Shown piece after piece: positions 34,719-63,730 of a stretch of DNA of 64,000 nt; position 1 is the stretch's first letter, and each line of letters starts with the position of its first letter. The notes under the pieces are model-generated. The model did not search any database. It had not been told where the DNA came from and saw only the letters and a program-made list of their open reading frames with translations. The stretch is taken from contig NC_087250.1 in the NCBI RefSeq assembly GCF_037042905.1, positions 3,908,001 through 3,972,000 on the forward strand, read 5' to 3'. A program made the translations under genes and the position numbers. The DNA is from Lytechinus pictus (Eukaryota).

Positions 34719-34845
34719 ATGGCTACTACGATGGGAAAGTCATTCCGAGTTTATCATAAAGTTGGTCCACCCTATTCTGTGATTCTGGAGGCAAGAAATA
34801 AACAAGAAACACTTCTTTTTGAGTCGGAGGCGGTCGCCGTGCTGA
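34719..34845 (+). CDS. SYNJ1: Synaptojanin exon 1
   Basis: [42 protein letters not shown]; donor GTAAGT. Confidence 0.9.
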
Positions 34846-37800
34846 GTAAGTATTGAAAATGTTCCAACTGCGGCAGCGACTGAGCGGATCCTGTAAACCT
34901 TCTACGCCTTCTACTACGGGCAAAGGTTGAGTCAGATGTTGGTGTGTGCCGCGACTGCGTCTGGGCACTGCTCTGTGACTGTGAGCTGATTGCAATTGCG
35001 CGACTGCTTCCTAATTGAATAAGATCTGGGCAAGACTACTTCCAGTAATTAAAAAAAATCTATGGAGAAGGTTTATAGATCTATATCAAGTCATAATACT
35101 AAATAGGCCTAAAGGCTAAACAGCTGGCAGCCGTCTGTTTCGAGTCCTGAGTTCTTATTCTTATAAAATCTTAACCTTTTTATTTTTTTTAATAACTCCT
35201 CATTAAGACATTATTATGAATATGATCATGATGATGGGGTGACCATAATTTGCGCACATTTGCAAAATTATCATGAAGTGGATTTTCAATAAAAAATTTC
35301 TCACAGCTCACACAAAATCAATCAAAATAATAAATTTATACCAAACGGAAGGCAAGATCCCAAAGACAAATTCGCTTGACGGAATCATAAAGTACGTAGG
35401 TCAAGGACAAGGGTTTCGGTGGTATCGCGATCTAAAAATTCCATGGCGATCAACTATTGCGCACTCGGCTGACAAAGACAAAGTCAAAGTGTCATAAAAA
35501 AGTGTGACCTTAATTTGCGCACGATCGTTTTGCAAGGCTTTAGAAAAGAAATCAAGTAGACAAAGGTAAGATAATTATATCAGATGGAGGTTAAAATGTC
35601 ATAAAATCGGTTGGTATCACATTTTACTTACTTATTTGGAGACCTCTGCTTGCAAACTGGCGATTTCTTGATGCTGGTTGAGGAGATCGGATTTTCTTGG
35701 AGCGGACGCAAAAGTTAACAAAATTTGCCAATGTTTTGCCAATATATTTACAAATATAGCTATTTATATAGGCCTAGAGACCTTTCCTTCAAGAAATTAC
35801 CATACTGAGTAATTTTAAGCCCTCTTTCTGTTGGTGATATCAGTTTTTCAAGATATTAATTAGATATTGAGATATTCGACCGTGCTCAAAATTAGGTAAC
35901 GCGCAAATTAAGGTCACACTACCATGTACACACACGGCTCGCTATCGTACAGCCGCCATTACGGACAGTGATTTTCCGTTGGAATAAATGGCCTTTTCCG
36001 TTTCAGAAAATCCTAAATTCCATTTCAGAAAACGGAAATTCTGTTTCCCCATAGACTTTGGGCGATTTCAAGTACGGTGTTGGCCTTGGTGTTGAAATTT
36101 GGATTGCTGCCCCTACATGTACTATGTAGCTCCAAAACTTATTCAGAGTTTGTAAAACTGATCTCAACAAATAGTGAATGACTTTTTCGAGACCATCTTC
36201 ATTTTATGTTTTATGTTATTTTTGTGTAAAAAATTACCGAACACCAACACCAGATGGTCAACACTGACCTTGAAATCACCCTTCGTGTTAATGAAAAAGT
36301 GATTATTCCGTTTACATAGCGATGTGCAACACTCGCGTTGGTCAAAATTTGTATTTGCCACTGGACATACTAAACAGCGCATTAGAATCCGTTCTAATCG
36401 GATCTTTACATGCGTACAAAATATTTTTGACAAACACATTCAACATGAAAACATTTATCCTCACCTTTCAAATTATAAATATTAGCATTAATTACTGTAT
36501 TTTAGGTTGAATGAAGGTTTATCAATAATTTTGGGATTTTTTCAACATCGTCTTCAGCAGTCAACAATTTTTGCCTATCCATTTTGGATTTCAAGAGTAC
36601 AGTACAGCGATATTGTGCTGTAACATCACCGAACATAGAGGGCAGCAGTACACGACCGTGTTGCTGCCTTCTACATACGTTGGTTAAAATCAAACAATGT
36701 GTGCATGTGACCAACCGGGGGCGTGAGGTACGATCGAGTGCAGTCACGATGTGTGGATTGTCATGAAACATAGCGAAGTGAGATCATGTTTTCAGGCCAG
36801 TAAATATTCATAATTTGTTGAGATTTTGGAGTCATTTCTGTTGCTGTTCTGTGCATTTTGAGAAAAAATATATTTTCCATGATTTTCCATTTGCAAAGCC
36901 ACTTTCCATTTCAAAAGGCTGTTTCCGTGAATTTCGTCAGTTTTCCGCGATCGTGGAAATTCACTGTCCCTACATGATCTACATGTAGGCCAAGTCTCAT
37001 CGAAAAGAATTTGGTCATACATTTGGCGATTTAAAAAAAAAAGGTTAGAGTAGACTCACTAGATCTAGGTCTAGTCTAGATCTACTTACCGATAATTTGG
37101 TTTGGTCGTTCAAAATTTGCCGTCAGCGTAGCTACATAGGGGCAAATCAAATTTTGACATAATCTTACGCCATTATTTTGACCATCTTCTAATTCTGTTC
37201 CTACTTCTGAGAAATTCCCAATTTCAACTAGATCTTCCATAATTCATGATATAAGAAAGCTTGCTAAATGTAAGAACAGAGCATTAAATCCCTCAATGAG
37301 TTTGTCTTTCTTGTTTTTATACAGGCATTGCTGAAACAGAAAGTTTAAGAAAGCAGTACCAGAAGATGACGGATGCTTACGGGTGTTTAGGTGCTCTCAG
37401 ACTCAATGTCGGTAAGAATATTACATTATTTTCATATCCCAATGTTGAATTTTATGGGTGACTTGCAAGAAATCCTTAATTTAATACAATCCATAGTTTA
37501 ATACAATGTAGTTCTTCATAGATAAAGATCAACACAATAGGAGAAGTGGTGTGCATGCAGACTGCAAGGCTCAACCCACTGCACTATATTCATATCAGAG
37601 TAGGGGGAACAAACAGATTTAAAAACAGTGCCCTCCCTAATCTTGTATGTGTGCTTAACATATATTACAAATCTTAACTGAAATAATTTGAAAATTCTTT
37701 AACGTTTGATATATATACATGCTTAGAAATTGTGAAATCTCTTTAATCACCATTGACTTATTGTGCTTTTAACAGTTTTATTATGAATGATTTTATCAAT

Positions 37801-40800
37801 CTATCATAGGCATTCTCCTTTTATTCATTCATCTTTATCAATAACTTACTGTGCAAATGTATGTGAATAATTTTAATTGTCTCTGTATTTTTTACCATGT
37901 ATTTTTAATTGATACCCTGTAAAGCATGTGTAATTCAGTTTTTTACTGCGATACATGTCTACTGAATAAACCATTAATGAAAAAAATCCCGGTGTAGTGG
38001 TCCACCTACACTCGCCCAATCAGTTATATCAGGAGGAGAGACCTGCGGGTCATAGTGATTCTGTCCATCAACCTTTCGTCTAACAAGCATTTGGTCCAAT
38101 CATCACTTTGTCCAATCACCATTTCGCCTATGACCATTTCGTCTAATATCCATTTCATTTTCATTCATTTTGCACAATTCAAGACTTAGTCCAATAAGAC
38201 CAAATGGTATATGAACTTAATGGCTATTGGACCAACTCGTTATTAGACGAAATGGCATTAGACTAAATGAAAGTAGACCATGTGGATATTGGACGAACTG
38301 ATGATAGACCAAATGATAGTAGACTAGTTGGCAATTGGACGTATTGGCATTACACGAATTGGAAATAAACACTATTTTTCTCTATAAAGCACCTTGAGCA
38401 TCTACATGTTAATAATTAAGAAAATGTGCCTAGTAGAGAACTATTACTTTTGTCATTCATAATAAAAATCAGATTTGATTATGGACCCAGTCAGTAAGAA
38501 CCTAAAGATGTATATATGTATTTTTTTTCTGAAACCATAGGTGATGAATCACTGCTATTCTTAGTCCTAGTGACGGGATGCTCATCCGTAGGTAAGGTCC
38601 AGGAATCAGAAATCTTCCGCATCACATCCACCCTCTTCATCTCGTTACGGAATAACTCCAGTGACGACGACCGCGTCAGCGAAGTCCGCAAGCTTCTCAA
38701 CTCGGGCACATTCTATTTCTCGTGGTCGGCATCAACAAAATCGAGGTTCGATCTCAGTCTCTGCGCCCAAAGGCAGAAACAAGATCACGTCACAGACAAT
38801 AGGTTTTTCTGGTAAGTTTTTGGGAGTAACTAATTCATGAAGCAGATAGTCAGTGAGAGCTGTTATAAGCTACTGAAATCCTGGCATCTGATTGACTCGT
38901 ATCAAATTAGTAATTTTCACTGCATCACAGATATAGGTAAAGAAATCAGATCTAGATCTGCCATGATATGGTGACAATTTACCCTTCATTAAATACAAAA
39001 ACTTTTCATGAAATTATTGATTGCTGCAACTTGAGGTCTTTAGCTTTATTCTCTAACTAAGATGAGTTAGGCCCTGTAGAGTACTGAGGTGATGACGTCA
39101 CAATTTTTTTTTTGTATTTCAGTACTTTACATGCCATATTCTAGTAGAGCATGATGAAAAAACCCCATTTACAAAATTTGGTGAGAATCGGTCCATGGGG
39201 GCCTGCGATATGACCTCATGAATACATAATTAGCCCCATTGAAGTCAAATGTGTTATTGGCCTGGTTTCTGACATTTAGAACCAGGCCTATAATACATTG
39301 ACTTCAATGGGGCTAATTATGTATTCATGAGGTCATATCTTGGGGCACCATGGCACCGATTTCCACCATATTTTGGGTTGTGGGGGGTTTTTCATCATGC
39401 TCGACCAAACTGGTGTAAAAAACGCTGAAATGCAAAAAGTGAAAATTGATGACGTCACACTTTTGTCCTCGTATTTCCGTGGTTTCAAGACTTCAAATCT
39501 GTACTCCCCATTGAAAACAGCATAAATAATAATAATAATATGAACATTTGTAATGCGCCGGTATCCATCATAAAAAGATGCTCATGGCGCAATAAAGAAA
39601 AGAAAAGAAAAGAAAAAGGAAAAGAAAGGAAGGAAGAAAGATAGAAAACCTACTAAAAAGAGGGGTAGAATAACAATTACAAGCTTGCGTGAATAACCAG
39701 GTTTTAAGAGAACTTTTGAAAGTGGTGAGACAAGAAATATTGCGGATTTCTATTGGCAGTTTATTCCATAGGAAAGGCCCAGCATGTTGAAATGATCGAT
39801 AGATGGTGTGCTGGCTCAGTTTGTTGAGCATCTGTCTCACAACCGGGAGGTCGGGAGTTCAAGTCCCTGTCGCATCAAACCATAAGACAGTAAAAGATGG
39901 AAGTTGCTGCTACCCTGTTTGGCATTCAATGATTTCAGGGATAGAACAACGTTGATCTGGCGCTGCACAGCGGCTGCTGGGCCCACGATCAATTGGTAAA
40001 ATAGGATTTTCAGGAGTATTTCTTTTTCAGATTTCTATTTGAAACAATGAAACATGGATTTCATCATTGTCATTTTCCTTTTATTTTTTTCTCCCAAGGA
40101 ATCGAGCCTTACATCTTCACCTGCAGCGGTTTGATGTGAACTGCTCCGACTGGTTGCTTAAGACCATGTGTGGAGGGGTGGAGGTGCGGACTGTCTACTG
40201 CGGTACCAGGCAAGCTAAGGCTTGTATCATCTCGAGGCTAAGCTGCGAAAGGGCTGGTACTCGGTTCAACGTAAGAGGGACCAACGACGATGGCCACGTC
40301 GCAAACTTCTGCGAAACAGAGCAGGTAAGTGTGTATCAGGGCTGTTATCGATAACATCTTTATCGCCAGTCTTGTCGATATTCGCTTGTTTTTTACCACT
40401 AAGCGATATCGATAACCGCAGTAAATCTGAAAACTCTCTTATGGTAAAATCAGGAAACAGTACGGTGCAAAGTCCTTATGCAGAAATGGGGCTACAGCAT
40501 AGATAGAGAGACCGCCTGCGAGCGTGGGGAAGATCATATGCAACACCTTTTGGTCTGCCCCCTCCTACCAGAGCCGTGCACTGCCAAAGATATGGAGTGT
40601 ATTAACCTCAAAGCCAGATCTTTATCCTCCATTGTGCAGGACATGTGTAGTGACCTGAGAAGAAGAGAAAAAAAGAAGAAGAATAATGAAGTGTTTTGGG
40701 GGAAAAATGTCAGGGGTCAATGGTAGGTAAAATGCCTCAGGAATGTGAAATATTGTATCTCATTGTTCTGTTCAGGTGATATTCCTTGATAATAAGGTCA

Positions 40801-43800
40801 CATCGTTCATTCAGACGAGAGGGTCCGTACCGTTGTTCTGGGAGCAGCCGGGTATACAGGTGGGAGTTCATAAGGTCAAGATGTCACGAGGCTTTGAGGC
40901 ATCAGCCCCGGCTTTTGACCGGTGAGTAGTGATATTATATTGCATGGCTCAGAATGGGACAGCAGAAATATTCCAAAGTAGTTTCAAAGTCGTTTTTGGA
41001 AATGGTGTCATATAGATTGGGACAATGTTCTGCTTTGAAATAATTATGATAATAATATGCATTTACATGTATATTCATTCGCTATCTACCTAGAAATAAT
41101 CTATTCCGAGGCGCATTATCATTATTGCCGTGGCTCGAGCTCGAGCTGCCTTTCAGCGCTCAGTGCATACAGGGGATTGATTAATCCTGCCGGGTACCCA
41201 TTCACCTCACCCTGCTTGAGTGCAACACAATAAGGGTAGATTTCTTGCTGAAGGAAAACACGCCATGGCTGGGATTTGATCCCATGTCCCTCTGATTGAA
41301 AGATGAGAGTCTTAACCACTAGACGACAATCCCCTCCCCCCCTCTTCTGAATGAGATATATGTAAAACTTGATTCTGAAGTATAACACTATAGCCCATCC
41401 CTATTAGTCTGCAATCACAGACTCATGTTTGACCCTTAAACCAATAACAGGTCTAGAGCAAAGACTAGACTCCAAAGACTCTGTGTGTGTCAAAAAATAA
41501 TAGAGCCAGCCACAGTGCACAGTGAATCTAGTCTCACTACTTCAGACTCTGTATTATGTACTATGCGAATTGCAAAAACCAAGGGTCTGTGTTTGCAGAC
41601 TACACCACTATTGACGTCAATTTGTACATTGATTTGTTTATTTCTTCAGTCATCTAACCATGTTGAAGGCTCATTACGGGGATCAAGTCATAGTCAACCT
41701 ACTCGGAAGCAAAGAAGGAGAGGATATGCTGAGTAAATCATTCCAGGTAAAAAACAAAGTACCACTATTATAGGGTCCGGTTTCACAAAACTTGTTATGT
41801 TTACCAGTTTGCAATATCAGTTTAAAGCTACTGAATCATTTGATTTGATAGGTTGATAGTAAACTTGATATAGAAGTTCATATTAGAATGAAATAGGGTT
41901 CTGCTGAACATGACTACAGCTGCCGGTATTACCAGTTCTACTTCTTCTCCTAATTCTCCTCCTACTACACCTATTAATACTACTACTACTACTACTACTT
42001 CTCCTTTGTCTTATTCTTCCTCCTCTTCCTCTCCTTCCTTCTCTTCTTCTTCTTCTCCTCCTTCTCCTCCTCCTCCTCCTCCCCCTCCTCCTCCTCCCTC
42101 CTCATTCTCATTCTCCTTCTTCTACTATATATAACCCTACCTGGTATTCTTCTATTTTCACCATAGAATCATCTAAAAGCCTCATCCCATGTTCAAGATA
42201 CCCCCCACATACTGTTTGACTATCATCAGATGTGTAAAGGGAAAACAGATAACCTCCACCTCCTCAAGAAAAAGGTGGCCACGGACGTTGACCGATTTGG
42301 TTTCTTTTACAGCGAGGGAGAGGAAGTCATACGGTAAGTCTTGTATTCCTCCTGATATTTTAAAAGGGGAATCCAACCCAAATAAAAACTAATTTTTAGA
42401 GGAAAAAGAAACAATCAGACAAATTGATAGGTGAACGTTTGAACAATATCGGACACACAATAAGAAAGTTATGAATTTTTTAAAGTTGTAAATATTTGTA
42501 ATAACTATACTTATGGAGACTTCAAATTGGCCACATATGTGATGTCATAGTGATGTTAAGGGGCTTTCACAATTACTTGTGCGATCGTTTGCGATCACTT
42601 GGTCACAATATATGTTACAAAGAATCGCAATGGATATAAGCAGTCGCACCACCAATTGTGAAAGGGGCAAGGACTACTCTTCCATGTACTGCAATATATA
42701 AAGTGGCCAATTTATTTTTTTCAAAAGTTTTACTTCATATATATTTTTTTTCATCAGGACATAAAACAATACACTACCTGGGTTATATTTAGATTACTGC
42801 CCCAGGGGAATGAGTACTTAGGAGAAAGCCACAAATCCCTTATAATTTAAATATATGGCCTATGGGGAAAGGTGTCCTTGCCCCTTGTCATAATTTACTT
42901 ACCCTGTTACCAATTGCAAATCTACATAGTCTTAGGGATCTCAATTTGAAAGCAGCAATAGCTTTCTTATTGCTTGCCCGATTTCTTTGAAATTTTCACC
43001 ATTTTTTTTCTTTCCAATATAACATTTTATGACGAAGGCTGAATTCCCATTCAACTACTTTCATACATGGGGAAAATAATAATTTTATTTAATAGAGAAA
43101 AATGAGTTGCCGGACAAAGACAAATATCTTGCAATTCCATCTGCTTTTGTTCGTTTTTTTCTTCTTTAATTTTGTCAAATACCACAATCTCGATGAGTTG
43201 TATAAAAACCAAATGAGTCAAGTCTTCATTTATCCATTATACGAACTATCAACCTATCTTCTAGGACCTCTCTTATTCATACTGCATATAAATGATTTTC
43301 AAAATTCATCAAACAAATTATCCTTCAATTTCTTTGCTGATGATTCTAGTTTATTTTTTTCACATAGGAATCCTCTAACCCTGATAGAAACAGTGAATTG
43401 TGAATTGAAGAATGTTATCTTGTGGGTTCAAGCCAATAAATTATCACTTAATTTTCAAAAGACAAATTATATGCTTTTTAGCAATTCCTAAAAAATGCTG
43501 CCTGGCAATGTAATGTTTAATAATGTCTGTCTTGAAAGAGTAACGTCAACTAAATTTCTTGGGTTATTTATTGATGAGAAATTGAACTGGAAACTTCATG
43601 TAAATCATCTCTGCAAACTGTTGTAAAAAAATACCGGTGTTATATACAAGTTGAGATCAGTTTTTCCTAAAGAAATTTTATTTATATTATATTCCTCATT
43701 AATTGTTCCTTACTTAAACTACGGTGTGCTTGCCTGGGGCAACTCACTTAAAACGCAATTGCAAAAATTATTCATTGTTCAGAAGAGAGCTATTAGAAGT

Positions 43801-46800
43801 ATATGTAATGTCAGTTATCGTGCCCATACAAATGTTTTATTTCATGACAATCACTTTATATAAAAGTGGAAGATATTTACTTTATGCAGCTAGGATCTCT
43901 TTTTATGTATGATTTTGATTCAGGAAGTCTCCCTTCAGCCCTGGCACTGATATTTAAGAAAAATAGTCAAGTACACAATTACAATACTAGACAATCTTCC
44001 ACTCTCCATATATCTCGTGCAAGAACAAAGTTCACTTTGGGCACTCTAGTTTGCACTGGACCCAGGTTTTGGAATGCACTTGGCCCTGACATTACACATG
44101 CTGTCAGTTCTACAGTGTTTAAACGAAAATTGAAATCTTATTTACTGAGTAACTATGGAAGTGATTCGTAAAGCCTATTTTTCGTGTGTTATTTATCAGT
44201 TAATGCTAAATTATCAATACTTAACATCCCCCCCTTTCCCGGGCCTGGCTGGTCTCTGTCCTCATGTCCCCTTTTTTGTCCCTTTTGTACATAAATGTGT
44301 CCCTCTTCTCTCCCCTCCTCTCTCTTTAGTTATCATATTATATTATATTGCCATTTCTTTGTTGTTTATCCAATGTTCTTTGAATTTGTAATGAGGAACC
44401 TTAATTTACAAGCATTGCTTCACTTAGGTCTCCTCGTCTTCCTTTAAAATTATTTCTTTTCTGTCTTAAGCTGTATAATGTATTTAAAAACAATGTTTTC
44501 TGCATACTCTGTTTTATATATACCTGTTTTATCATGTACTCTGCTCATTGTTTCATACACACTTATATGTTTGTCATGTATTCAAACTCAAAGTTGGAAG
44601 ACAAATAAAATGAACTTATGAACTTATGAACTTATCAACCCTCGTTGATGCTGTGTTCATTCCATTGCACTTAGCCTAACGGCTTTGTGCAATGGATTGA
44701 ACAGAGCCCCAACTCAAGTGAGGATAGATCGCATAATGAACTCATGTGCATGCGTCATTTTCTTGACCTCAGACATCAGACGGGAACAATCAGGACAAAC
44801 TGCCTCGATTGCTTAGACAGGACGAATGCCGTGCAGACCTTCTTCGGACAAGATGTAAGTTTAGGAGGCATTCTTTGGATACATGGATAGAGACATAAAT
44901 ACATATGGGCCCGCGACAGGCGATTTTGGCTGTCATGTGGTGGAAAAAAGAGGTTGTTGAGATATCTCAGAGTTGTGATGCCAAGCTATCAGATGTAATG
45001 TATTTTTAAATGGGAAATGGTGGAGGCATGGATTTAGAATGCTTGGAATTGAGGATGATAATAAATAATTGATATGCACAATTTATTTTGTGCTTAATGC
45101 AATGTTTCTAAGTGCTCGAGCATTCAAGGAATTCCTTCCTACTGGGTACCCATTTAGCCTACTACACCTTGATGGAGAGTGGCAAATGTAGATAGATGCC
45201 TTACTAAAGGACACAGGTGATGTGGTGAGATTTGAACCCCAGACCTTGTAGTTCATCTACTGAGCCACAACACTTCTACTAGAATCCATATTAAAATTCT
45301 TTTGTTAAGATTTTTTTTTTTTTCAATTGATTGATTGATTTTGATTATGTTACAGATGCTGGCTAAGCAGTTAGAAGCTCTTGGTGTTACTAGCAAACCT
45401 CAGATCATGTCACGATTCTTAGAAACATACAGGACCATATGGGGTTTGAGTGGTGACCATATTAGTAGGATATATGCTGGTACAGGCGCATTAGAAGGCA
45501 AGACAACGGTAAGTCAAGAAAAGATGTTACACCAGTCTTAGAAACATACAGGACCATATGGGGTTTGAGTGGTGACCATATTAGTAGGATATTCGCTGGT
45601 ACAGGCGCGTTAGAAGGCAAGACAACGGTAAGTCAAGAAAAGATGTTACACCAGTCTTAGAAACATACAGGACCATATGGGGTTTGAGTGGTGACCATAT
45701 TAGTAGGATATTCGCTGGTACAGGCGCTTTAGAAGGCAAGACAACGGTAAGTCAAGAAAAGATGTTACACCAGTCTCAGAAACATACCCGTCCATATGGG
45801 GTTTGAGTGGTGACCATATTAGTAGGATATATGCTGGTACAGGTGCGTTAGAAGGCAAGACAACGGTAAGTCAAGAAAAGATGTTACACCAGTCTTAGAA
45901 ACATACAGGACCATATGGGGTTTGAGTGGTGACCATATTAGTAGGATATGCTGGTACAGGCGCATTATAAGGCAAGACATCGGTAAGTCAAGAACAGATG
46001 TTACACCAGTCTTAGAAACATACAGGACCATATGGGGTTTGAGTGGTGACCATATTAGTAGGATATATGCTGGTACAGGTGCGTTAGAAGGCAAGACAAC
46101 GGTAAGTTGAAAAACAACTTTACACCAGTCTTAGAAACATACTGGACCATATGGGGTTTGAGTGGTGACCATATTAGTAGGATATACGCTGGTACAGGCG
46201 CGTTAGAAGGCAAGACAACGGTAAGTCAAGAAAAGATGTTACACCAGTCTTAGAAACATACCAGACCATATGGGGTTTGAGTGGTGACCATTTTAGTAGG
46301 ATATACGCTGGTACAGGCGCGTTAGAAGGCAAGACAAAGGTAAGTCAAGAAAAGATGTTACACCAGTCTTAGAAACATATCAGACCATATGGGGTTTGAG
46401 TGGTGACCATTTTAGTAGGATATACGCTGGTACATGCGCATTAGAATGCAAGACAACGGTAAGTCAAGAAAAGATGTTACACCAGTCTTAGAAACATACA
46501 GGACCAGATGGGGTTTGAGTGGTGACCATATTAGTAGGATATATGCTGGTACAGGCGCGTTAGAAGGCAAGACAACGGTAAGTCAAGAAAAGATGTTACA
46601 CCAGTCTTAGAAACATACAGGACCATATGGGGTTTGAGTGGTGACCATATTAGTAGGATATATGCTGGTACAGGCGCGTTAGAAGGCAAGACAACGGTAA
46701 GTCAAGAAAAGATGTTACACCAGTCTTAGAAACATATCAGACCATATGGGGTTTGAGTGGTGACCATATTAGTAGGATATACGCTGGTACATGCGCATTA

Positions 46801-49800
46801 GAAGGCAAGACAACGGTAAGTCAAGAAAAGATGTTACACCAGTCTTAGAAACATACAGGACCAGATGGGGTTTGAGTGGTGACCATATTAGTAGGATATA
46901 TGCTGGTACAGGCGCGTTAGAAGGCAAGACAACGGTAAGTCAAGAAAAGATGTTACACCAGTCTTAGAAACATACAGGACCAGATGGGGTTTGAGTGGTG
47001 ACCATATTAGTAGGATATATGCTGGTACAGGCGCGTTAGAAGGCAAGACAACGGTAAGTCAAGAAAAGATGTTACACCAGTCTTAGAAACATACAGGACC
47101 ATATGGGGTTTGAGTGGTGACCATATTAGTAGGATATACGCTGGTACAGGCGCATTAGAAGGCAAGACAACGGTAAGTCAAGAAAAGATGTTACACCAGT
47201 CTTAGAAACATACCAGACCATATGGGGTTTGAGTGGTGACCATATTAGTAGGATATACGCTGGTACAGGCGCGTTAGAAGGCAAGACAACGGTAAGTTAG
47301 GAAAAGATGTTACACCAGTCTTAGAAACATACAGGACCAGATGGGGTTTGAGTGGTGACCATATTAGTAGGATATACGCTGGTACAGGCGCGTTAGAAGG
47401 CAAGACAACGGTAAGTCAAGAAAAGATGTTACACCAGTCTTAGAAACATACAGGACCATATGGGGTTTGAGTGGTGACCATATTAGTAGGATATACGCTG
47501 GTACAGGCGCATTAGAAGGCAAGACAACGGTAAGTCAAGAAAAGATGTTACACCAGTCTTAGAAACATACCAGACCATATGGGGTTTGAGTGGTGACCAT
47601 ATTAGTAGGATATACGCTGGTACAGGCGCGTTAGAAGGCAAGACAACGGTAAGTTAGGAAAGGATTGTATTCCATCTTTATCTTAATTCCGGGGCCCTGT
47701 CTTTCAAAGAGTTACGATTGATCCAATCAATCTCAACTGAATAGAAATCCATCCATACCGTAATTTTTTCTACAGGAAGTTTGTACAATCTCCTTTGTAA
47801 ACAAAGAGAATCACACTGAATCTTCAAAAGAACGATGATTGTATGAATATACATCGTATCTAGAAAATAGTTTGAACAGATTTGCAATTTAGATGATGAC
47901 GTTGCTGGCTGTCCATAGTCCTGGTTGATCGGATCAATCGTAACTCTTCGTAAGACGGGCCCTTAACCTGCCAACTGCCCTGATTTGATCAGGATTGTCC
48001 TGATTTTCAACTTTCAAAATGGCCCGAAGTCAGGACGTCCTGATTACTGAAATTTAATGTGAGAAAAAAAAATTGTGGAAAAAATCACCATAGACCCATT
48101 CATGCTCCAAGTCTTCAATACATCTTTAAATAGCCCAGTCCTTTTAAGGTTAAATGTGCTACAATTCCGAGGGTAAGTGCCTTCTTCACCCCCTGCACAG
48201 GGCACTGCCTGCCTTTCCCTGAACCCCGCTGGGGGCTTCGTTGTCCCCTTAGACCTTTACACTAGCCTATCCAGCATCAACTACGACAAAGAAATGTATG
48301 GGCCCGTGCACAAGCATAGTAGAGTCACTATTGTCCCCAGACAATTGGGCCCATGAAATGCTTTGTAGGATCTGATGCTGGATACACGCCTGCTCTAGCT
48401 ATTGGGTTATCCGGATTTTGCAGTTTTAATGTTGGCAGGTATGTAATCCAGGTATAGACCAAGAGAGTTACAATTTTTTGGTTTGGGATATTGAATTAAC
48501 GATAGCTTTGAACTAGATCCTTTTCCATGAGTTATGGTCCGGGCTGAAAGTATTTATAGCTTAATAGAGTAGAATTCACTGAGCAAAATGCCGAAAATTT
48601 CAGTAAAATCGGATAACAAATAACAAAGTTATTGAATTTTAAAGCTTAGCAATATTTTGTGAAAACAGTCGTCATGAAAATTCATTAGGTGGGCTGATGA
48701 TGTCATATCCCCACTTTCCGTTTTCTTATGTTATTACATAAAATCATAATTTTTTCATTATTTCATACTTGTGTGAATAATAAGTCTCCCTTATGATGAA
48801 ATAAGTTGCAGCAATAAATATCTAATGCACTAAATCAGTTGCCAATCCAATTTTTCTAGTTCTTGGAGGAAAAAATTTGAATATAATAAAATACAAAAGA
48901 ACAAGTGGGGATGTGACATCATCAGCCCACCTAATGAATATTCATGACGACTGTTTTCACAAAATATTGCTAAAATTAAAATTCAATAACTTTGTTATTT
49001 GTTATCAGATTTTGATGAAATTTTCGGCATTTTGCTCAGTGAATTCTACTCTATTAATTAAGCTATAAATACTTTCAGCCCTGACCATCCCTTTAATCTC
49101 TTATGTTCCCTTACAGGCTGGTAAGCTCCGGGACGGTGCAAGATCGGTGACGCGAACCATACAGAACAACTTCTTTGATGGCACAAAGCAAGAATCTATC
49201 GATGTTCTTTTACTTGGAAGCTCATTAGTAGGAACCCTGGCGGACAAGGCTAGCTCACTCTTACCTAGCAGTCATTTGCATGGTGAGGCATATTTGTTAG
49301 ACTTGTGTCTGGGTGTTTTTTTTTTAATATACTGATGCAAGGAAAATAATCTTCTGTGAAGTTAGTAGACAAGGAGCTTGGTTGACAAGGCTAGCCTAGC
49401 TCACTCTTACCGCGCAGTCTTTTACATGGTGAGGCATATTTGTTAGACTTGTGTCAGGTTGTTTTTGTAACCTATGCTGCTGTAGTGAAAAGATATTCTG
49501 TGAAGTTAGTTGACAAGGAACTTTGTTGACAAGGCTTGCTCACTCTTATCAAGTTGTCATTCATGTGGTAAGATGTCTGTGCAGACTATTGTCTTTTGGT
49601 ATTCATTAAGAATGATATTCTCAAATGGCATAGCCAAATGATGAAAAGCCTGGCTATTTTGAATAATTTGATGGTGTTCATGATAGATAACAAATAAATA
49701 ATCATACCAAATCAATTTTCAAATCAATATGATGTGAAGAGTGATGTTTGAATCCTAGCTATGGCATAATTTCTTTCAAGTAAATGGTGAGTTAAATGGA

Positions 49801-52800
49801 TAGCTAGCAGGAATTTATTCCTTGAAATGCTTGTGCACTGGATAAGGCTGCCATGCTAAATCCGATGTAATAATACCAAGTCCTTTAAAAAGCCACATGA
49901 ACGTTATAAGTGCACTATACAAGTCTTATGTTCTATCATTGTTGTTATCATAAAAAGTGATATGCACTTTAAAGAAATGGCTATCATTTTTAATCCGGTA
50001 AGATATTAAAAGCCATTTCTTCTCTCCCTCTTTCAGCTTCACCGCACATTCTGCAAGGTGTGTGTGAGAGGGAGGGGGACTTCACATCGAGCTCGCGTTT
50101 CAGGATATGCGTCGGGACGTGGAACGTGAACGGGGGCAAGAACTCGCACAGCATCGCGTTCAAGAATGAATCTCTCGCCAACTGGCTTCTCGACAACCCA
50201 CAGGTCGTAGAGGAAACGAATCAAGGTGAAAAGCGTGGTGACATGGGCCCTTATTCTGAAGTCGGGTTTAATCTAAACTCTGGTTTAAAGTTGTGGTTTA
50301 ACTATGGATAGCCAATAGTGGCATAAACCTCTTAACAGCATGATTTCAATGTATTAGCTCACTTTTCTCTCAAATCATTCTAAACTGTTTCGGAAGGATA
50401 TGTAAGATAGCTTTCTTCGCTATTCACAAGTTAGGAAAGAGCACAGTAAACATAAAGTAATGTCCAATGTAAGGACAATTTTGACATGTTTGGCTTTTCA
50501 TAATTTTTACACAGAGTTAGATAATGGTCTAAGTTACTTCAGAATACGGGCCATGATGTTTGCTCCTGCTACAATTGTTTCAGGCTTTTTTTATTTCATC
50601 AGAGAATAGTATTGGGCATTCAATAGGATACAGATATTCAATGTTTATAAGTGCAATGGTAGACAAATAGCAAACAGGCATGAGTGTGGTGGTACAGGAT
50701 TTAGCAGGAGGTGAAAGAAAAATGCTCTTTTCAATGAGGCATTAGCCAAGTTGTAAAGAGTTCTCTTTCGTCCATGAAATGCGAAATGTCGTACCATTCG
50801 CTATTTGTGTTGTACGATGCCTTGGAAGTTAGCGAAAATATGAAGAAAAATCGAGTTTTTCCCTGCTTAATCTATGATAAAGGAGAAAAAAATATTGAAA
50901 GCGAAAAGCAAAATCTCTGAAAATTTTCTTTCACCTAATGCGAAATCTTGCTCCATCGCACTCATGCCTGTTTCGCTATTTGTATACTGATATTGATCAA
51001 AAGTGGATATACATATAACTGCTCTTTGGAGCCAAACTCTTCATGTAAATATTTCATTGGTTTGCTTCATCTTTCAGGTTGTTCAGAGATGGGCGTTGAC
51101 TTCTCTGTTCCGAATGACATCTATGCTATCGGCTTTGAAGAAATGGTGGATCTGAATGCAGGCAATATCATTAGTGCAAGGTGGGTCTTGTGACTTAAAG
51201 GGTTACATTACGGTTGTAATTGATTGAACGTCAGTTTTAGATGCCCCAAACAATTTCAAGTCTTGAAATAAGTAGCATTTTCCCACTGCTTTTTGTAAGG
51301 AAAGACAGAATTATATTTTCAGTCAGTTTTAGTTTCCCTATTCAATCACAAGCTAGCTGCAAGTTTGCACTATTTCTTTAGAGATTAAGAACAAACACAT
51401 TTACCTTCTTTAGTCAGTTTTACTTCCAGTAAATGATCACAAGTCTTGAAATTAGGTTGCAGGTTTGCATTATTTCTTGTTCAAAAAGACAGAATTATCT
51501 TGTCCGGCGCCACATTAATTTTAGGGTGCAACCTCGAGAGGAATTTCGCATGGACTCTGCTAAAACAACTCGCGATAACTTTGGATTTAAAAGAAAAGCT
51601 TTGTGTGTACACTGCAGAATGCCGTGCACACAGTACTATTGTGTGTGTGTGTATGCACAATAGACTTTCTGCATTTCTGTGTGTATTGTTAATCAAATGT
51701 GAAATAAGTTGAAGTTGGCATCTGTGGTATGATTCACTAGTTGAACAAAGCAGGCAAAGAATGAAATTCAACAAGAATTGCATTTTTTTTTCTTTCCATT
51801 TCTTGTAGTACAACAAACCAAAGAAAATGGGGAGTGGATCTCCAAAAGACGTTATCAAGAGAACACAAATACGTTTTACTGGTGTGTGAACAGCTCGTCG
51901 GAGTGTGCCTCTACATCTTCATCCGACCTCAGCACGCACCGTTCATCAGGTAAATTTTATTTTTGAAATATTTTTAATAACTCGTATTTACCCAGAGTAG
52001 CAACTTCACATGTTAGCTGATTTTCAAGCAGGCCCTCCATAACCTAATGTGCAATATGCCAGTTTGCAGTTCCATTCTGCGCATGATCAGAAGGTCATTT
52101 GTACTAAAGTGACATGGCGGTTTAATATTTAATGAGTTAAGCACCAACTTTGATGTCTTGATTATTCATACATTCTTTTGAATTGGGTTTTTCATTAGAT
52201 CCACAAAAAATAACAATGCGTCCATTAGCGACTGGTATTTCACAGTCGGCCAAGTGCACATTGATATAACAACATGCTAATGCATTCGTAGCATAAATGC
52301 AACAAATACCTTCATAGAGTGTTCATTGTGTGCTATTTTAGTCACCTGGGCCCGTCTTACAAAGAGTTACGATTGATCCATCAGTGTCATAATATTTTCT
52401 ACAGGAAATTTGCCCAATGTCATTTGTGAACAAAGAGAAGCACAGTGTATTTTCATGAAAACAATGGATGCATCAATATAAATCATAGCTAGAAAATATT
52501 TTGAACAAACATGCATCATACATGTTGATGTTGCTGGTCGTCCATACTTGTGATTGATCGGATCAATCGCATCTCTTCATAAGACGGGGCCCTAATCTAT
52601 GCAATTTCTGCATCCTGCTATGTAAGGCATGCTTACATAATATCTTGCTTTGAAATCTGCCTATCATAATGAAAGAAATGAAAGGTCATTTGACCAAAAT
52701 TGCCCATGAGGTAACTTCAAACTGGTCTATTATGACACTTCTCCATTCTCAAAATTGTTCATTCACCCCCTCCCCCCCTTGACATTCAAATTGATAGATT

Positions 52801-55800
52801 TGTAATGCCAGAAGAACTGGCCATGATGTGATTACTCTTTTTTTTTTAAAATCTTGCACATCTTTTTGAGTCCAAATTTGGATACCCTTTTGAGCGGTTC
52901 CAAAGTTATGCACTATTTTGTAGTCGTAAATTGGATAAAAAATTGCTCATCATGATGAAAAACCTCCATTTGAGAACACTATACCCCAGTTTTTCTCAAT
53001 CAATTCTCTTCTCCAAGTACGACAAACCCTACTGCCCCAAGCATGCAATGTAAGTATCAAAACACCTGTTTCTTGACCTCGGTCCGAAGATAACACAACA
53101 GCCCGAGCGCGGTCCGTACAGCGAATGCCGCCATTTTTGTCTCGCCTGCATAGCAGAGCGAGACTATAGGCGCCGCTTTTCCGACGGCGGCGGCGTCAAC
53201 ATCAAATCTTAACCTAAGGTTAAGTTTTTGAAATGACATCATAACTTAGAAAGTATATGGACCTAGTTCATGAAACTTGGACATAAGGTTAATCAAGTAT
53301 TACTGAACATTCTGCTTGAGTTTCAGGTCACATGACTAAGGTCAAAGGTCATTTAGGGTCAATGAACTTAGACCATGTTGGGAGAATTATTTTCAAAATC
53401 TTAACCGAAGGTTAAGTTTTTGAAATGACATCATAACTTAGAAAGTATATGGACTTAGTTCATGAAACTTGGGCATAAGGTTAATCAAGTATAAGTGAAC
53501 ATCCTGCTTGAGTTTCAGGTCACATGACCAAGGTCAAAGGTCATTTAGGGTCAATGAACTTTGGTCAAGTTGGGGGTATTTGTTGAATTACTATCATAAC
53601 TTTGAAAATTTATAGATCTAGTTCATGAAACTTAGACATAAGGTTAATCAAGTATTAGTGAACATCTTTCCTGAGTTTCAGGTCACATGGTCAAGGTCAA
53701 AGGTCATTTAGGGTCAATGAACTTTGGCCGTGTTGGGGGTATTTGTTGAATTACCATCCTAACTCTGAAGGTTTATGGATCTAGTTCATAAAACTTGGAC
53801 ATAAGAGTAATCGAGTATCACTGAACATCCTGTACGAGTTTCAGGTCACATGACCATGGTCAAAGGTCATTTAAGGTCAATGAACTTTGGCCGTGTTGGG
53901 GGTATTTGTTGAATTACCATCCTAACTCTGAAGTTTATGGATCTATTTCATAAAACTTGGGATATAAGAGTAATCAAGTATGACTAAACATCCCCTGTGA
54001 GTTTCAGGTCACAAAACCAAGGTCAAAGGTCAGTTAAGGTCAATAAACTTAGGCCATGTTGGGGTAATTGTTGAATTGCCATCATAACTTTGAAAGTTTA
54101 TGGATAGAGTGAATGAAATGTGGACATGGGTGTATTTGACAAGTCTTAAGTCACCGTTCAAATGTCATCTATGGTCAATGAACGTGGTATTATGTCATTA
54201 TATGAATGGTGTTTTTGTGAATGATTATTTTATAGTAGTTTTCAAAGTTAGCACTGCTGCTATATTAAATGCAGGCGAGACTGCCAGAGGCGTTCCACTT
54301 GTTTATTCACTTACTTTCCTTATTTCGAGGTTGATTTTCTTCGTTCGAAATTGAAAATGGACTAACATTGAATTTCTGAATACAATATGCCTTTGAAAAC
54401 GTGATTAAATATCGAATACAATAATTTCATTCCGAAGGTCCTTCTACAGGCAGAGAAGTCTTACGTAATAGCACAGCTGTTGTTTATCATTTCGTCCTTG
54501 GCTTTACTGGCCTGTGGAGGTGAAATTGAGACAACGGGGATTACCTGGCCAAGATGGGTTTATTGGGGCTTGGAAATGTTATTGAGAGTTTCAAATGAAA
54601 AATGGGGTCTAGAACCGCAGTTTGCAATCCGAACTGCGGTGTCCCCCCAAATGGGGTTTTGACGTAATGTCAGTCGTGATTTCATTGACATATTCAAATT
54701 TAGAAATTCACTTCAAATGCGGGGCGTTGTGGTCTAGTGGTTACGAATCTTGTCTTTAAATGAGAGGGACGTGGGTTCGAATCTCAGCCATGGCATATTT
54801 TCCTTCAGCAAGAAATTTATCCACATTGTGCTGCACTCAACCCTGGTGAGGTGAATGGGTACCTGGCAGGATTAATTCCTTGAATGCACCAAGCGCCTTA
54901 AGCAGCTGGAGCTACAGCCTGGGTAATATATAGTGCACCATTGAATAGGAAACTAGATGAATCGGCGCCTCATAAATGCTAAATATTAGTATTGTTATAT
55001 CAAATGTGATGGCATTGAATTTATTTCTGCATTCAAATTAAAAACCAGAGAATACAATGCATAACAAACGACATTTAAAAAAATACACACAAACGACTTT
55101 ACAAAAAGAATTATAACGGAAATTAAGTGGGATCATAGAAAGTTCTTAAAATGCTTTCACAAATGTACATGTATGACGATTGTTTGCCATTGCTGATCAA
55201 GATTGCTCATTGTTTACAACAATACAGGGATGTCGCCGTGGACACTGTAAAGACTGGACTCAAGGGGGCAGCAGGCAATAAAGGGGGCGTGGCAATTCGA
55301 TTTGTCTTCCATGGAACGTCCATGTGCTTCGTATGTGCTCATCTAGCCGCGGGCCAGTCACATATCAAGGATCGGAATGATGATTATGCCGAGATTAGCT
55401 CCAAGATTATGTTTCCTATGGTGAGATTGAGTGTTCCAATAATAAAAGAAAAAAGTTTTGTATGTTACTCAGATTAGAGATTTTGATTGACTCAATGCAA
55501 GATCTTTTGCATTAGGCCTTTTTCATGAAACTTATTGCAATAACAGTTTATGATAACAGTTTTAAGCTACTACAATAGTTTTATTTGATAGGCTGATAGT
55601 GAACTTGTTAGAAAAAAAATGTACATTTGTTATCATAACATACATTTTGAAATGGGACCCAAATTTTTTAAAGCCTTATGATGGTAACCATCAAGGAAAA
55701 ATTGATAATAATTAGCTGCTAACTTTTGTTACTACAAAGGTAGGTACATACCAAAGTCATGTGAGTTTTGTATTTGATGTCTCCCATGCCAAGAATTTTC

Positions 55801-58800
55801 TAAAATGAATTTGAACAGAATTGAATAAAGACCACCCATATCTTTGTATATGTAAGTAAGAATTTTGTGCTGATTTATTCTGTTAAAAAGTGCGTAATTG
55901 TTGAAAAATAAGCAATGCATTCTTGATGTTTTTTTTCCTAGCAATAATAACGTTAGATCTATATATCCAAAGATATGATTGCAATTAAAGGTTAAAGAAT
56001 GTATTTACTGCAAACAATTATTTCATGAGGAAGTCTTTAAAATCAAGATTAATTAACACCCTATTAACATAGATCTAGATCTGGTACATTAACAAATTTA
56101 TCTTTGTGAAATCATGAAATCCTTGATGAAAACTGACAACACTTATGATTACTAATCCCCAAAAGGATATATGAGACAGTGCATTAATATTGCTTGAAAA
56201 AATACCAGACATCTGATGGAATTCTGTTTTTATTTTGTTCATTTCTAAGCAATTACACATTTTCTTTCAGAGCCATTTGGCACAAATTCTTTATTCATAC
56301 ATACAAACTCTTGGTTGGTCCTGTTATTGGATTCTGTGCAAACTCATTTTAAACCTCATTTTAAAGACTGTCTAATTAAATTATTAACCCGTTGCTTACG
56401 GGAACCGGTGGGTTCCCTGTGTTAAACATATGGGATTCAAAGAATCTCGGAGGCAACGGATTAAGAGATCTTGAGTTCAGCTTTAACCCTTGACTTTCTA
56501 TTGCCAGGGCCGTACTCTGGAGAGCCATGACTATGTGTTCTGGTGTGGGGATTTCAACTATCGGATTGACAAGGACAACGATGAAGTCAAAGATCTAGTA
56601 GCCATCCATGACTATGAAGCGCTCAAGGAATGCGATCAACTCTTGATTGAGAAACGTAGTGGAAATGTAAGTATCCCATTCTTCAACATACTTTATGTTA
56701 CCAGCCTGACAAAATTGAATAATAATAAAAATGATAGGCATTTAGAATGTGCTCAACTCTTGATTGAGAAATGCAATGGAAATGTAGTTGTCCCAGTTTT
56801 CTAGATGTGTTATGTTACCAGTCTGATAAAGTTCAGTAATAGTGAAATAAAGGCATTGGGAATGTGATCAACGTTGTCGCCAGAGCAAATGTCATGAATA
56901 TGATTGTATTCTGGGTATTTTGATGGGGGGGGGGGGGCTGAGGGGATTGGCACAGGTTGGGATTTCAAGAGCCAGGCCCTCAATGTCAGCTTTTGAAAAG
57001 ATGACTTCCCTACATCGATTTTCAATCTAGACTTACTTAAAGGGGACACCATTTTTTCTTGATGGAATAACCGGTACTGAATACTTTCTCCTTTTTTTTC
57101 ACTATTTTAGAAAAAAAATTGTGGGCCGGGAGTGGTAGCAGGTCTTTCGTATATGTACTTCCTCCTTTCCCTCTTTCTTCTATCATTTGAAGAAAAGAAA
57201 TTGTGGGTAGGGTTCGGGTAGTGGAAAATCAACAATATATATTATTATTTTTTTTTACAATTATTGATGCTGCGTCACAACATTCCGCTGTGTTTTACGC
57301 TCTTACAGACATTCCAAGGGTTTTCGGAAGGAACGATACGCTTTGCACCGACCTACAAATATGACCTGTTTTCTGATGATTACGATACAAGTGAGAAGAT
57401 GAGGACACCAGCCTGGACGGATCGCATTCTGTGGAGAAGGCACAAACCATTCTACTTCAAACATAGCACAGATAGTAAGACATTAAGACAATTAAATCTG
57501 AAATGGGCATATTAATTTAATTATTCTTATGCCTCCGTCTAGCATAGGTGGTGCCAGAGGCACAGGGGCGGATCCAGGATTTTCCAAAACGGGGGGCAAA
57601 TTTTTCGAAGGAAAACAATTTGACAAGGAAAAAAAAAAAGGTCTTCAACCACAAATTAAACTTGTACCCGAAAAAAATTGACAAGCAAAAAAAAGGTCTT
57701 CAGTTTAAAAAAGGGGGCACACCTCTGTTTTCATGGCATTTTTACATTACAAATTTTTTTGCTTCTCAAAAGGGGGGGGCACCTGCCCCCTGTGCCCCCC
57801 TCGATCCGTGCCTGCAGAGGCATGAAGCTCAACGCACATTATGTGAGGCGATGCGACACATTTTTTTAATTAATTGCATATGGCATTAAAGGTGGAAGTT
57901 TTGAAGTTAATAATGTTAGGAATTATAAAATCATGATGGAACTTTGCGGCAAGCCCTGTGGTCAGAGTAAAGTCCAAATCGGCTTCAAGTCGCAGTCGAT
58001 GATGACATCATTACGATTTTGATTTGAATTTGGTTTTGGTTTTATTCATACATGTACGGGGAGACTCAAACTGGACTGAATTTTGAATTCAGTAGTCCTA
58101 CCACTATTCTGAACACTGAACGCTAAGATTTTATTGGTTGTAATGTTCATATAAAATACTATTGCTATTTCTTTGAAATTTGGATTGCAACGAATTGCAT
58201 AGTATGCGCCGGGCTCTACGCTTTCTGGTTGTCCGTCTGCCCCTTTTTCATTCTCTCAATAACTAAAAGTACTGTTTGACAGAGGAACTTCGAACCTGGT
58301 CCAAGTATGCATATAGAAGTCACGATGATCTGATTAGTTTTGTTCACAGAAGTATTTTGTTCTCACGCTGACTAAGAACCGTTTGAGGGTTCAATATCAA
58401 ACTTTACTCATGTATCCTTATGGGAACGGCAGTGATCTCATTAGATTTTGAGGTCAAAGGTCGAAGGTGAATGTAGAGAATTAATCTAAATTTGGTTTAG
58501 CTTTAAGATTTATTGCCGTCAAAGTTGAATCAACAAAGACATGATGAGACCCTTTCTATTTTGCATGCCTTGGATGGTACGCTTAGATATCAATTGAATT
58601 TACAGGAGATCCCGCTCATGCGTTCACGAGCATGTTCATCACCATCACTCGACGCCATTTTGCGCTTTTTATACGTCTGTCCTACAGGACATATTATGGT
58701 ATAACTTAACCTAGGCTCATATAATCTGGTGTGTATGATACTAGCATAGATCCCAGGAAGCCTATTGATTTTTACGTCAAAAGGTCAAAGGTCAAGGTCA

Positions 58801-63057: not shown

Positions 63058-63103
63058 GTAATGGGATGAAAATGACGAGGAGGAAGGTGGAAGAAGAGAA
63101 GGT

Positions 63104-63725
63104 TGATGATGCTGATGATGTTGATGATGATGCTGAGGATGATGCTGATGATGCTGATGATGATGATGATGATGATGCTGATGATGATGATGATGATGCT
63201 GATGATGATGATGATGATAGGATGGTGATGATGATGATGATGATGATAATGATGATGATGATGCTGATGATGATGATGCTGATGATGATGATGATGATGC
63301 TGATGATGATGATGATGCTGATGATGCTGATGATGATGATGATGATGCTGATGATGATGATGATGATGCTGATGATGATGATGATGATAGGATGGTGATG
63401 ATGATGATGATGATAATGATGATGATGATGCTGATGATGATGATGCTGATGATGATGATGATGATGCTGATGATGATGATGATGCTGATGATGCTGATGA
63501 TGATGATGATGATGATAATGATGATGATGATGCTGATGATGATGATGATGCTGATGATGATGATGCTGATGATGATGATGATGATGCTGATGATGATGAT
63601 GATGCTGATGATGCTGATGATGATGATGATGATGATGATAATGATGATGATGATGCTGATGATGATGATGCTGATGATGATGATGATGCTGATGATGATG
63701 ATGATGATGATTGATGGTGATAATG
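63104..63725. repeat. Long (GAT)n microsatellite with GCT interruptions
   Basis: Directly visible; the GATAGGATGGT interruption recurs 170 bp apart (~63216 and ~63386). Confidence 0.97.
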
Positions 63726-63730
63726 ATATT

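What the first reader, a model, noticed from the sequence alone, without database searches (positions are those of the whole stretch)
45417..47662. Nineteen tandem copies of an exon end plus 5' splice site: a decoy or poison splice-site array inside synaptojanin
Seen: each 119-bp unit is the last 92 nt of coding exon 9 followed by GTAAGTCAAGAAAAGATGTTACACCAG (27 nt, starting GT and ending CAG), so each copy looks like AG|exon|GT. Only the first of 19 near-identical donors gives a full-length protein. Using any later donor reads [14 protein letters not shown]. Splicing into an internal CCAG from a phase-0 donor reads TCT TAG (Ser-stop). Either route ends at residue ~453-462, just after the SAC1 core and before the 5-phosphatase. 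The last three units are themselves a 357-bp duplication (GTAAGTTAGG at 47292 and 47649). Established: 27 nt is below normal spliceosomal intron size, and premature stops trigger NMD. Inference: the array could act as a copy-number-dependent expression rheostat, yield a SAC1-only isoform or circular RNAs, or simply be tolerated because exon definition selects the first donor.
Basis: partly seen in the sequence, partly recalled or inferred. Interest (0 to 1): 0.75.

Follow-up and report, generated by a model that had tools for sequence, protein, structure and literature searches.

The report
Repeated splice donor in urchin synaptojanin
The end of one exon of a sea-urchin synaptojanin gene, with its splice signal, is copied 18 more times into the next intron; the limited RNA data fit use of the first signal only, as in similar repeats already known from human and lancelet genes, so it is most likely a harmless by-product of DNA duplication.

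Summary
The array is real: 19 units of 119 bp (one of 117) at 45417-47675 in intron 9 of Lytechinus pictus synaptojanin, each holding 92 nt of exon 9 and an intact GTAAGT donor. It is a boundary-spanning minisatellite of a known kind (human F7, CBS, LMNB2; amphioxus 'mirages'). Evidence for a passive repeat: the 20-exon model using donor 1 matches the RefSeq protein at 1008 of 1008 residues; one transcript-like contig with copy-1 letters leaves at donor 1; internal acceptors are purine-rich; the copies show no coding constraint; a related species shows one copy; four other junctions of this gene carry similar duplicates. A 'SAC1-only' product would end at the equivalent of yeast Sac1 residue 470, and longer Sac1 fragments are inactive. 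RNA depth was low (about 5), so minor use of later donors with NMD is not excluded. The rheostat and circRNA ideas have no support but were barely tested. This scan has already found many such arrays elsewhere in this genome, some far larger. The remaining interest is the apparent bias of local duplications towards splice junctions (5 of 7 in this gene).

The parts
34719..63057 (+). Synaptojanin gene, coding exons 1-20 (residues 1-1008; the gene runs on past the window's end)
   Evidence: Spliced model with GT-AG introns translates without a stop, 1008 of 1008 residues identical to P0003, L. pictus synaptojanin-1-like X1
45356..45508 (+). Coding exon 9 (153 nt, phase 0/0, residues 402-452, C-terminal part of the SAC domain)
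   Evidence: exon 8-9 joint 44854>45356 seen in runs X1 and X24
45417..47675 (+). Minisatellite, 19 units of 119 bp (unit 5: 117 bp): last 92 nt of exon 9 plus 27 nt of intron start; 16 distinct unit sequences; mean pairwise difference 4.2% in the exon part
45509..45514 (+). Authentic donor of intron 9 (ACG|GTAAGT), first of 19
   Evidence: gene model; X1 contig with copy-1 letters leaves the reference after 45509
45628..47654 (+). 18 pseudo-donors, all keeping GTAAGT; the one at 46340 is AAG|GTAAGT, the best consensus match (8 of 11 U1 positions against 7)
45539..45541 (+). TAG met by any exon 9 extended to donor 2 or later; 86 nt upstream of the donor-2 junction
46962..47661 (+). Higher-order three-unit duplication (units 14-16 and 17-19); unit 16 has a hybrid spacer that starts like the terminal intron (GTAAGTTAGG) and ends like the array spacer
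47649..47678 (+). Terminal intron start, alignable to the spacer but diverged (23 of 32 columns match); ends in TCTT, the same 4 nt that start the unit at 45417 (microhomology)
45509..49116 (+). Intron 9 (3608 nt, the longest of the 19 introns modelled; 1468 nt without the extra copies)
49117..49282 (+). Coding exon 10 (residues 453-507), carrying the end of the Sac1-homologous region

Best explanation
A boundary-spanning minisatellite ('mirage') without a function of its own. Step 1 (inferred): a segment of about 119 bp across the exon 9 donor was duplicated head to tail, probably by repair or slippage at a 4-nt TCTT microhomology. Step 2 (pattern shown, mechanism inferred): unequal exchange or slippage expanded it to 19 units and homogenised the interior, leaving shared variants, a three-unit block duplication and a diverged last unit. 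Step 3 (shown weakly here, established in the F7 model): the spliceosome defines exon 9 from its acceptor and takes the first donor, so copies 2-19 are removed with intron 9. Step 4 (inferred): rare slips to a later donor carry a stop at 45539 and are cleared by NMD. The array persists because it costs little.
For: Donor 1 gives the 1008/1008 match to the RefSeq protein. None of the 126 proteins fetched carries the read-through or cassette peptide. In run X1 the only contig on exon 9 has 0 differences from copy 1, joins exon 8 to exon 9 and leaves after 45509; no contig lies on the spacer. Donor 2 would give an exon of 272 nt and donors 3-19 exons of 391-2293 nt, against 82-271 nt for the gene's 20 exons. 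All 13 AGs in a unit have an upstream pyrimidine share of 0.50 or less, below all 19 real acceptors. Variants: 6 synonymous of 19 substitutions, 22% expected at random (p=0.24), plus a nonsense change and a 2-nt deletion in unit 5. In DNA run X9 (another organism label) one contig crosses exon 9 and the spacer at flat depth, with no second unit laid. Four other junctions of the gene carry duplicates, 70-98% alike depending on locus. Precedents: only the first donor is used in F7, LMNB2 and PDGF, and amphioxus mirages do not disturb splicing and spare their border units from homogenisation.
Against: RNA evidence is thin. X1 is one assembled contig at depth 5.5, its library type is not on record, assembled contigs drop rare forms, and I did not see the letters after its exit (exon 10 is inferred). 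The raw-read RNA run X24 had exon depth of only 2-6 and differs from the window at 6 exonic positions, so it may not carry the array. All 19 donors are intact, whereas later copies at the exon 15 and exon 20 donors have lost GTAAGT; this fits a young array but is also what retention would look like. In CBS and IFI6 two pseudo-sites are used besides the true donor. A RefSeq model picks the open frame by construction. X9 excludes only a unit at least 85% alike.
Confidence: 0.8

Rival explanations
1. Leaky, unselected expression modifier: donor 2 or the near-perfect donor 8 takes a measurable share of splicing, these mRNAs go to NMD, and longer alleles give somewhat less synaptojanin.
For: All donors intact and the stop lies 86 nt before the donor-2 junction. 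CBS and IFI6 use two pseudo-sites. In F7 constructs only a perfect-consensus pseudo-site drew splicing, and donor 8 is AAG|GTAAGT. ABCA7 VNTR length goes with lower expression and exon skipping (review passages). NMD would hide such RNA in ordinary libraries.
Against: No RNA read or contig on the spacer in X1 or X24 (low power). Donor 8 would need a 984-nt exon. In the scanning model only the nearest donors compete, so adding copies beyond the second should change little (inference). Copy-number variation was not shown here.
Confidence: 0.12
2. Selected regulator (poison or decoy donor array) that tunes synaptojanin dosage by cell type or stage.
For: The spacer and donors are highly uniform: 15 of 18 full-length units have an identical spacer. 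Synaptojanin dosage matters in mammals (recalled, not checked here).
Against: Uniformity is expected from recent expansion. No second unit in X9. Other junction duplicates in this gene are decaying. Earlier notes report many such arrays in unrelated genes of this genome (unchecked AI notes).
Confidence: 0.03
3. Source of new products: a SAC1-only protein, a 38-residue in-frame cassette, or circular RNAs using internal AGs.
For: An in-frame GTAAG|T route exists on paper. Repeats of this kind have been proposed as raw material for new introns and exons.
Against: Internal AGs lack pyrimidine tracts. Residue 452 aligns to yeast Sac1 residue 470, and Sac1(2-460) and Sac1(2-490) lack substantial activity. 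No such peptide among 126 fetched proteins. No back-joint listed for the rRNA-depleted run X24, but at depth 2-6 and a 3-read threshold.
Confidence: 0.03
4. Assembly artefact: the array, or much of its copy number, comes from mis-assembly.
For: No long read spanning the array was seen, so 19 copies rests on the assembly alone.
Against: 16 distinct units with variants shared among several copies and a three-unit block structure. A 149-nt contig in DNA run X15 runs from the spacer straight into the next unit start (pieces 45479-45535, then 45417-45508), the form that a 119-bp tandem repeat takes in such an assembly (depth 3.8; independence from the window's source unknown).
Confidence: 0.02

Closest known systems
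Human F7 intron 7 37-bp VNTR, and the cases listed with it: CBS intron 13 (15-20 units), IFI6/6-16 (25 pseudo-sites), LMNB2 (100 bp x 10-15), PDGF intron 4 (81 bp x 16-18). Source: Borensztajn et al. 2006, PMC1557585 (abstract, Introduction and Discussion read; the other four genes known to me only through its Introduction)
   Same: First unit spans the exon-intron boundary, so the donor is repeated down the intron; unit size and copy number are close to LMNB2 and PDGF; the first donor gives the normal mRNA.
   Different: Here 92 of 119 nt are coding exon (4 of 37 in F7). Length polymorphism and minor pseudo-site use are measured in the human cases and were not measured here.
Amphioxus 'mirage' minisatellites (Adh3, globins BflGb6 and BflGb9, PGBD5, troponin C). 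Sources: PMC3087553 and PMC3902484 (passages read); Canestro et al. 2002 seen only as a citation
   Same: Tandem copies of an exon-intron boundary at either donors or acceptors, 81-100% alike, homogenised inside with border units left out, no reported effect on splicing, several per genome.
   Different: 19 copies here against 3-6 in BflGb6; an echinoderm; somatic and allelic length instability not tested here.
ABCA7 intron 18 VNTR (review PMC6660495, passages read)
   Same: Intronic tandem repeat between coding exons; a precedent for repeat length affecting expression and splicing.
   Different: There the effect is measured and put down to factor binding and exon 19 skipping; here no effect is shown and the unit is a copy of the exon end itself.

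Membership tests
Boundary-spanning minisatellite (F7/CBS/LMNB2 type; amphioxus 'mirage') | Head-to-tail repeat of minisatellite-sized units | tested here: met
   19 units of 119 bp, 95% matches
Boundary-spanning minisatellite (F7/CBS/LMNB2 type; amphioxus 'mirage') | Terminal unit spans a real exon-intron boundary of a coding gene | tested here: met
   Unit 1 = 45417-45535 across donor 45509 of exon 9
Boundary-spanning minisatellite (F7/CBS/LMNB2 type; amphioxus 'mirage') | Splice signal repeated in the intronic copies | tested here: met
   GTAAGT in 19 of 19 units
Boundary-spanning minisatellite (F7/CBS/LMNB2 type; amphioxus 'mirage') | Normal mRNA made from the exon-proximal site | tested here: met
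   1008/1008 match to RefSeq protein; X1 contig exits at donor 1 with copy-1 letters. Major form only; low depth
Boundary-spanning minisatellite (F7/CBS/LMNB2 type; amphioxus 'mirage') | Concerted evolution inside the array, border unit diverged | tested here: met
   Shared variants, three-unit block duplication, unit 19 spacer differs at 8 of 27
Boundary-spanning minisatellite (F7/CBS/LMNB2 type; amphioxus 'mirage') | Length polymorphism between alleles or cells | not testable with these tools
   No long reads or well-covered conspecific DNA run among the 24 runs listed
Poison-exon / regulated AS-NMD element | Alternative form carries a premature stop well upstream of a junction | tested here: met
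   TAG 86 nt before the donor-2 junction
Poison-exon / regulated AS-NMD element | The stop-carrying form is actually made and rises when NMD is blocked | tested here: inconclusive
   No RNA on the spacer, but depth 2-6 and no NMD-blocked sample
Poison-exon / regulated AS-NMD element | Conserved between species | tested here: not met
   One DNA run of another organism label shows no second unit at 85% likeness or more; one sample only
Tandem exon duplication / mutually exclusive exons | Each copy has its own usable acceptor and keeps the frame under coding constraint | tested here: not met
   Copies lack the exon 9 acceptor; internal AG pyrimidine share 0.50 or less; 13 of 19 substitutions change the amino acid or make a stop

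The most novel reading that the evidence does not exclude
In Lytechinus, splice junctions are hot spots of short tandem duplication through a transcription- or splicing-coupled process (5 of 7 local duplications in this gene cross a junction). Arrays like this one then form a class of length-variable cis-modifiers that leak transcripts into NMD, here tuning synaptojanin dosage, and give a genome-wide natural experiment in 5' splice-site choice.
Probability: 0.1. Interest if true: 0.65.

Novelty: new member of a known kind. Interest (0 to 1): 0.17.

Why it matters
On its own it is one more boundary minisatellite, and it shows that first-donor choice copes with 18 intact competitors carrying 92 nt of the true exon context. 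The part worth pursuing is collective. Junction-spanning duplicates are common in this gene (5 of 39 junctions), and earlier notes of this scan report them in many other genes of this genome. If that bias holds genome-wide, it bears on how minisatellites start and on the duplication route to intron gain, and a laboratory urchin would offer many natural tests of donor selection. My searches of the held library listed no echinoderm case; subscription journals are largely missing from that library.

Tried and rejected
No whole genome is held for this window, so no genome-wide count of junction duplicates was possible. The run search listed no holder on record as RNA; this is not evidence either way. 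Run X24 (raw RNA reads, about 6 in 100 read) gave 0 reads through donor 1 and no listed back-joint, but exon depth was 2-6, most of its 2398 laid reads came from an interspersed repeat in intron 8, and its reads differ from the window at 6 exonic positions; I do not count it as a test of donor choice. X15 depth cannot be read as copy number. A PDB sequence search with exon 9 alone found nothing; longer queries found Sac1 and Fig4. RNA structure as the reason for donor choice was rejected: the donor hairpin is the same for donors 1 and 8 and weak (z -1.46 and -1.35). Gene conversion between copy 1 and the intronic copies was considered because T59 and A74 are shared, but both are CpG transitions and may be recurrent. 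Look-ups of earlier notes near the window, by sequence and by words were empty. Canestro et al. 2002 is not held. Searches were read as listings only, except for the papers named. No supplementary files were read; those of PMC3087553 hold the mirage alignments and could refine the comparison.
Full report
OBSERVATION. The array is there as described. TRF reports 45417-47665, period 119, 18.9 copies, 95% matches. Splitting at the unit start gives 19 units, unit 5 being 117 bp, and all 19 hold GTAAGT. A 27-nt junction pattern occurs 18 times with up to 3 mismatches, against 0 in 100 shuffles. There are 16 distinct unit sequences; the exon parts of the 18 full-length units differ by 4.2% on average. 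Units 14-16 and 17-19 match at 342 of 343 nt up to the point where unit 19 leaves the array.

HOST GENE. The 51-residue exon is 100% identical to synaptojanin-1-like proteins of Lytechinus variegatus and L. pictus. A 20-exon GT-AG model from 34719 to 63057 translates without a stop and equals P0003 (L. pictus isoform X1) at 1008 of 1008 residues, with 15 differences from the L. variegatus protein. The window is therefore taken to be L. pictus. Exon 9 is 45356-45508 (phase 0/0) and intron 9 is 45509-49116. All seven members of the P0003 cluster read ...LEGKTT|AGKLRD..., and none of the 126 proteins fetched holds the read-through peptide or the in-frame cassette peptide. Annotation favours open frames, so this shows that the normal form exists, not that other forms are absent.

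WHAT OTHER SPLICE ROUTES WOULD GIVE. Any later donor extends exon 9 through [10 protein letters not shown] to TAG at 45539-45541, 86 nt before the donor-2 junction. By the 50-55 nt rule (established for mammals; assumed for urchins) this is an NMD substrate. The extended exons would be 272-2293 nt, against 82-271 nt for the 20 exons modelled. Of 13 AGs in one unit none has an upstream pyrimidine share above 0.50, while the 19 real acceptors have 0.56-1.0; CCAG|TCT has 0.25. The product ending at residue 452 is not a complete SAC domain. Homology to yeast Sac1 runs to about residue 486, residue 452 aligns to Sac1 residue 470, and Sac1(2-460) and Sac1(2-490) lack substantial PI4P phosphatase activity while Sac1(2-511) has it (PMC4137058; abstract, passages and part 2 of 4 of the text read). 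An active SAC1-only isoform is therefore unlikely (inference from the yeast enzyme).

NO SIGN OF CONSTRAINT ON THE COPIES. Against the consensus there are 19 distinct substitutions in the exon part, 6 synonymous and 13 not (22% synonymous expected at random; p=0.24), including a nonsense change, and unit 5 has a 2-nt deletion. Changes at neighbouring bases were counted singly. No variant falls in GTAAGT; with so few variable sites this says little.

READS. Four of the 24 listed runs were laid on 44726-45535, which holds exon 8, exon 9 and one unit, so all copies collapse onto it. X1 (same organism label as the best holders; library not on record): one 2519-nt contig, depth 5.5, joins exon 8 to exon 9, has 0 differences from copy 1 and leaves after 45509; nothing lies on the spacer. 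The letters after the exit were among rows not shown, so the join to exon 10 is inferred. X24 (raw RNA): 3 reads join exons 8 and 9 and none runs into the spacer, but depth was 2-6 and all covering reads differ from the window at six exonic positions, so this sample may lack the array and is not counted. X9 (DNA, another organism label): one contig crosses exon 9 and the spacer at a flat depth of 68 and runs 76 nt beyond without a second piece being laid, so there is no unit at least 85% alike there; a decayed second copy is not excluded. X15 (DNA, a third label): a 149-nt contig runs from 45479-45535 into 45417-45508, a head-to-tail unit junction with the letters of unit 2. This argues that the tandem arrangement exists in reads; whether X15 is independent of the assembly is unknown, and the number 19 is untested.

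HOW IT AROSE. The unit begins with TCTT at 45417. The intron start after the last donor aligns to the spacer (23 of 32 columns) and ends in TCTT at 47675-47678. A duplication at this 4-nt microhomology is the simplest origin (inference). Shared variants, the three-unit block and the hybrid spacer of unit 16 point to unequal exchange or slippage (pattern shown). The last spacer differs at 8 of 27 positions while 15 of 18 full-length units have an identical one. That fits exclusion of the border unit from homogenisation, but the size of the gap is not explained: the first duplication may be older than the expansion.

SAME THING ELSEWHERE IN THE GENE. A search of all 20 exons with 60-nt flanks found duplicates across the exon 10 donor, the exon 15 donor, the exon 20 acceptor (97 bp x 6) and the exon 20 end: 5 of 39 junctions with this one. 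A self-comparison of the gene found 7 local duplication events, 5 crossing a junction. Random placement gives p=0.0025, or 0.011 without this array; with doubled lengths, 0.016 and 0.050. This is one gene, chosen because of one such event; unit lengths were set by hand (130 nt for the displaced exon 20 copy); and exon-anchored copies stay recognisable for longer. It is a hint only.

COMPARISON WITH WHAT IS KNOWN. Borensztajn et al. 2006 (PMC1557585; abstract, Introduction and Discussion read) describe minisatellites whose first unit spans an exon-intron boundary: F7, IFI6, CBS, LMNB2 (100 bp x 10-15) and PDGF (81 bp x 16-18). Only the first donor is used in F7, LMNB2 and PDGF, while two pseudo-sites are also used in IFI6 and CBS; F7 mutagenesis supports 5'-to-3' scanning. 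Amphioxus 'mirages' are the same structure at donors and acceptors, length-unstable, homogenised inside, and without reported effect on splicing (PMC3087553 and PMC3902484, passages). The 'mirage' lead came from earlier notes of this scan, and I checked it in those two papers. The array meets five of six features of this kind; length polymorphism could not be tested. It fails the tests for tandem cassette exons and for a conserved poison element. The eight notes shown report similar arrays in other genes of this genome, up to 176 and 377 copies; I did not check those loci.

VERDICT. Real, and a new member of a known kind. Passive repeat with first-donor choice 0.80; measurable unselected leak 0.12; selected regulator 0.03; new products 0.03; artefact 0.02. 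Interest 0.17. The open questions are minor donor use under NMD block, allele length variation, and the junction bias of duplications in this genome.

Noticed in passing
window 62319-62899: Mirror-image case in the same gene: 97-bp x 6 array ending at the exon 20 acceptor, each unit repeating TTGACCCTAG|AT; the real acceptor is the last one.
   Followed up: partly
window 49247-49561: Exon 10 end plus donor duplicated (about 146-bp shift, 82-90% alike), with a third, more decayed copy near 49528.
   Followed up: partly
window 56628-56872: Exon 15 end plus donor duplicated (117 bp, 78% alike); the copy's donor has decayed from GTAAGT to GTAGTT.
   Followed up: partly
window 62962-63941: Exon 20 end and donor region copied 774 bp downstream (70-84% alike, donor lost), separated by a 624-bp (TGA)n microsatellite at 63104-63727.
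   Followed up: partly
window 46102-46128: The spacer of unit 6 has 7 clustered changes that form a hairpin over the donor (GTAAGTTG...CAACTTTAC; z -2.56, 2 of 200 shuffles, one of four folds tried); possibly a template-switch mutation.
   Followed up: partly
window 45475 and 45490: The real exon carries T and A where the array consensus, run X9 and run X24 have C and G; the same changes are scattered among intronic copies. Both are CpG transitions, so exchange between the exon and its copies is possible but not shown.
   Followed up: partly
window 45104-45265: Intron 8 holds a piece of a very high-copy interspersed repeat (contig depth thousands of times the single-copy level in X9) that is also abundant in RNA run X24.
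   Followed up: no
window 1-16338 and 21441-24244: A 16-kb satellite (period about 229/446 bp) and a second, shorter array of what looks like the same family on the opposite strand.
   Followed up: no
window 31798-33314, minus strand: Broken reading frames that look like a LINE reverse-transcriptase remnant upstream of the gene (judged by eye; no family search run).
   Followed up: no
proteins P0125, P0126 and P0121, P0122: Both Lytechinus species have two records of the same 1499-residue length; the L. pictus pair differs from P0003 at 19 positions. Either assembly duplicates or a real second locus.
   Followed up: no
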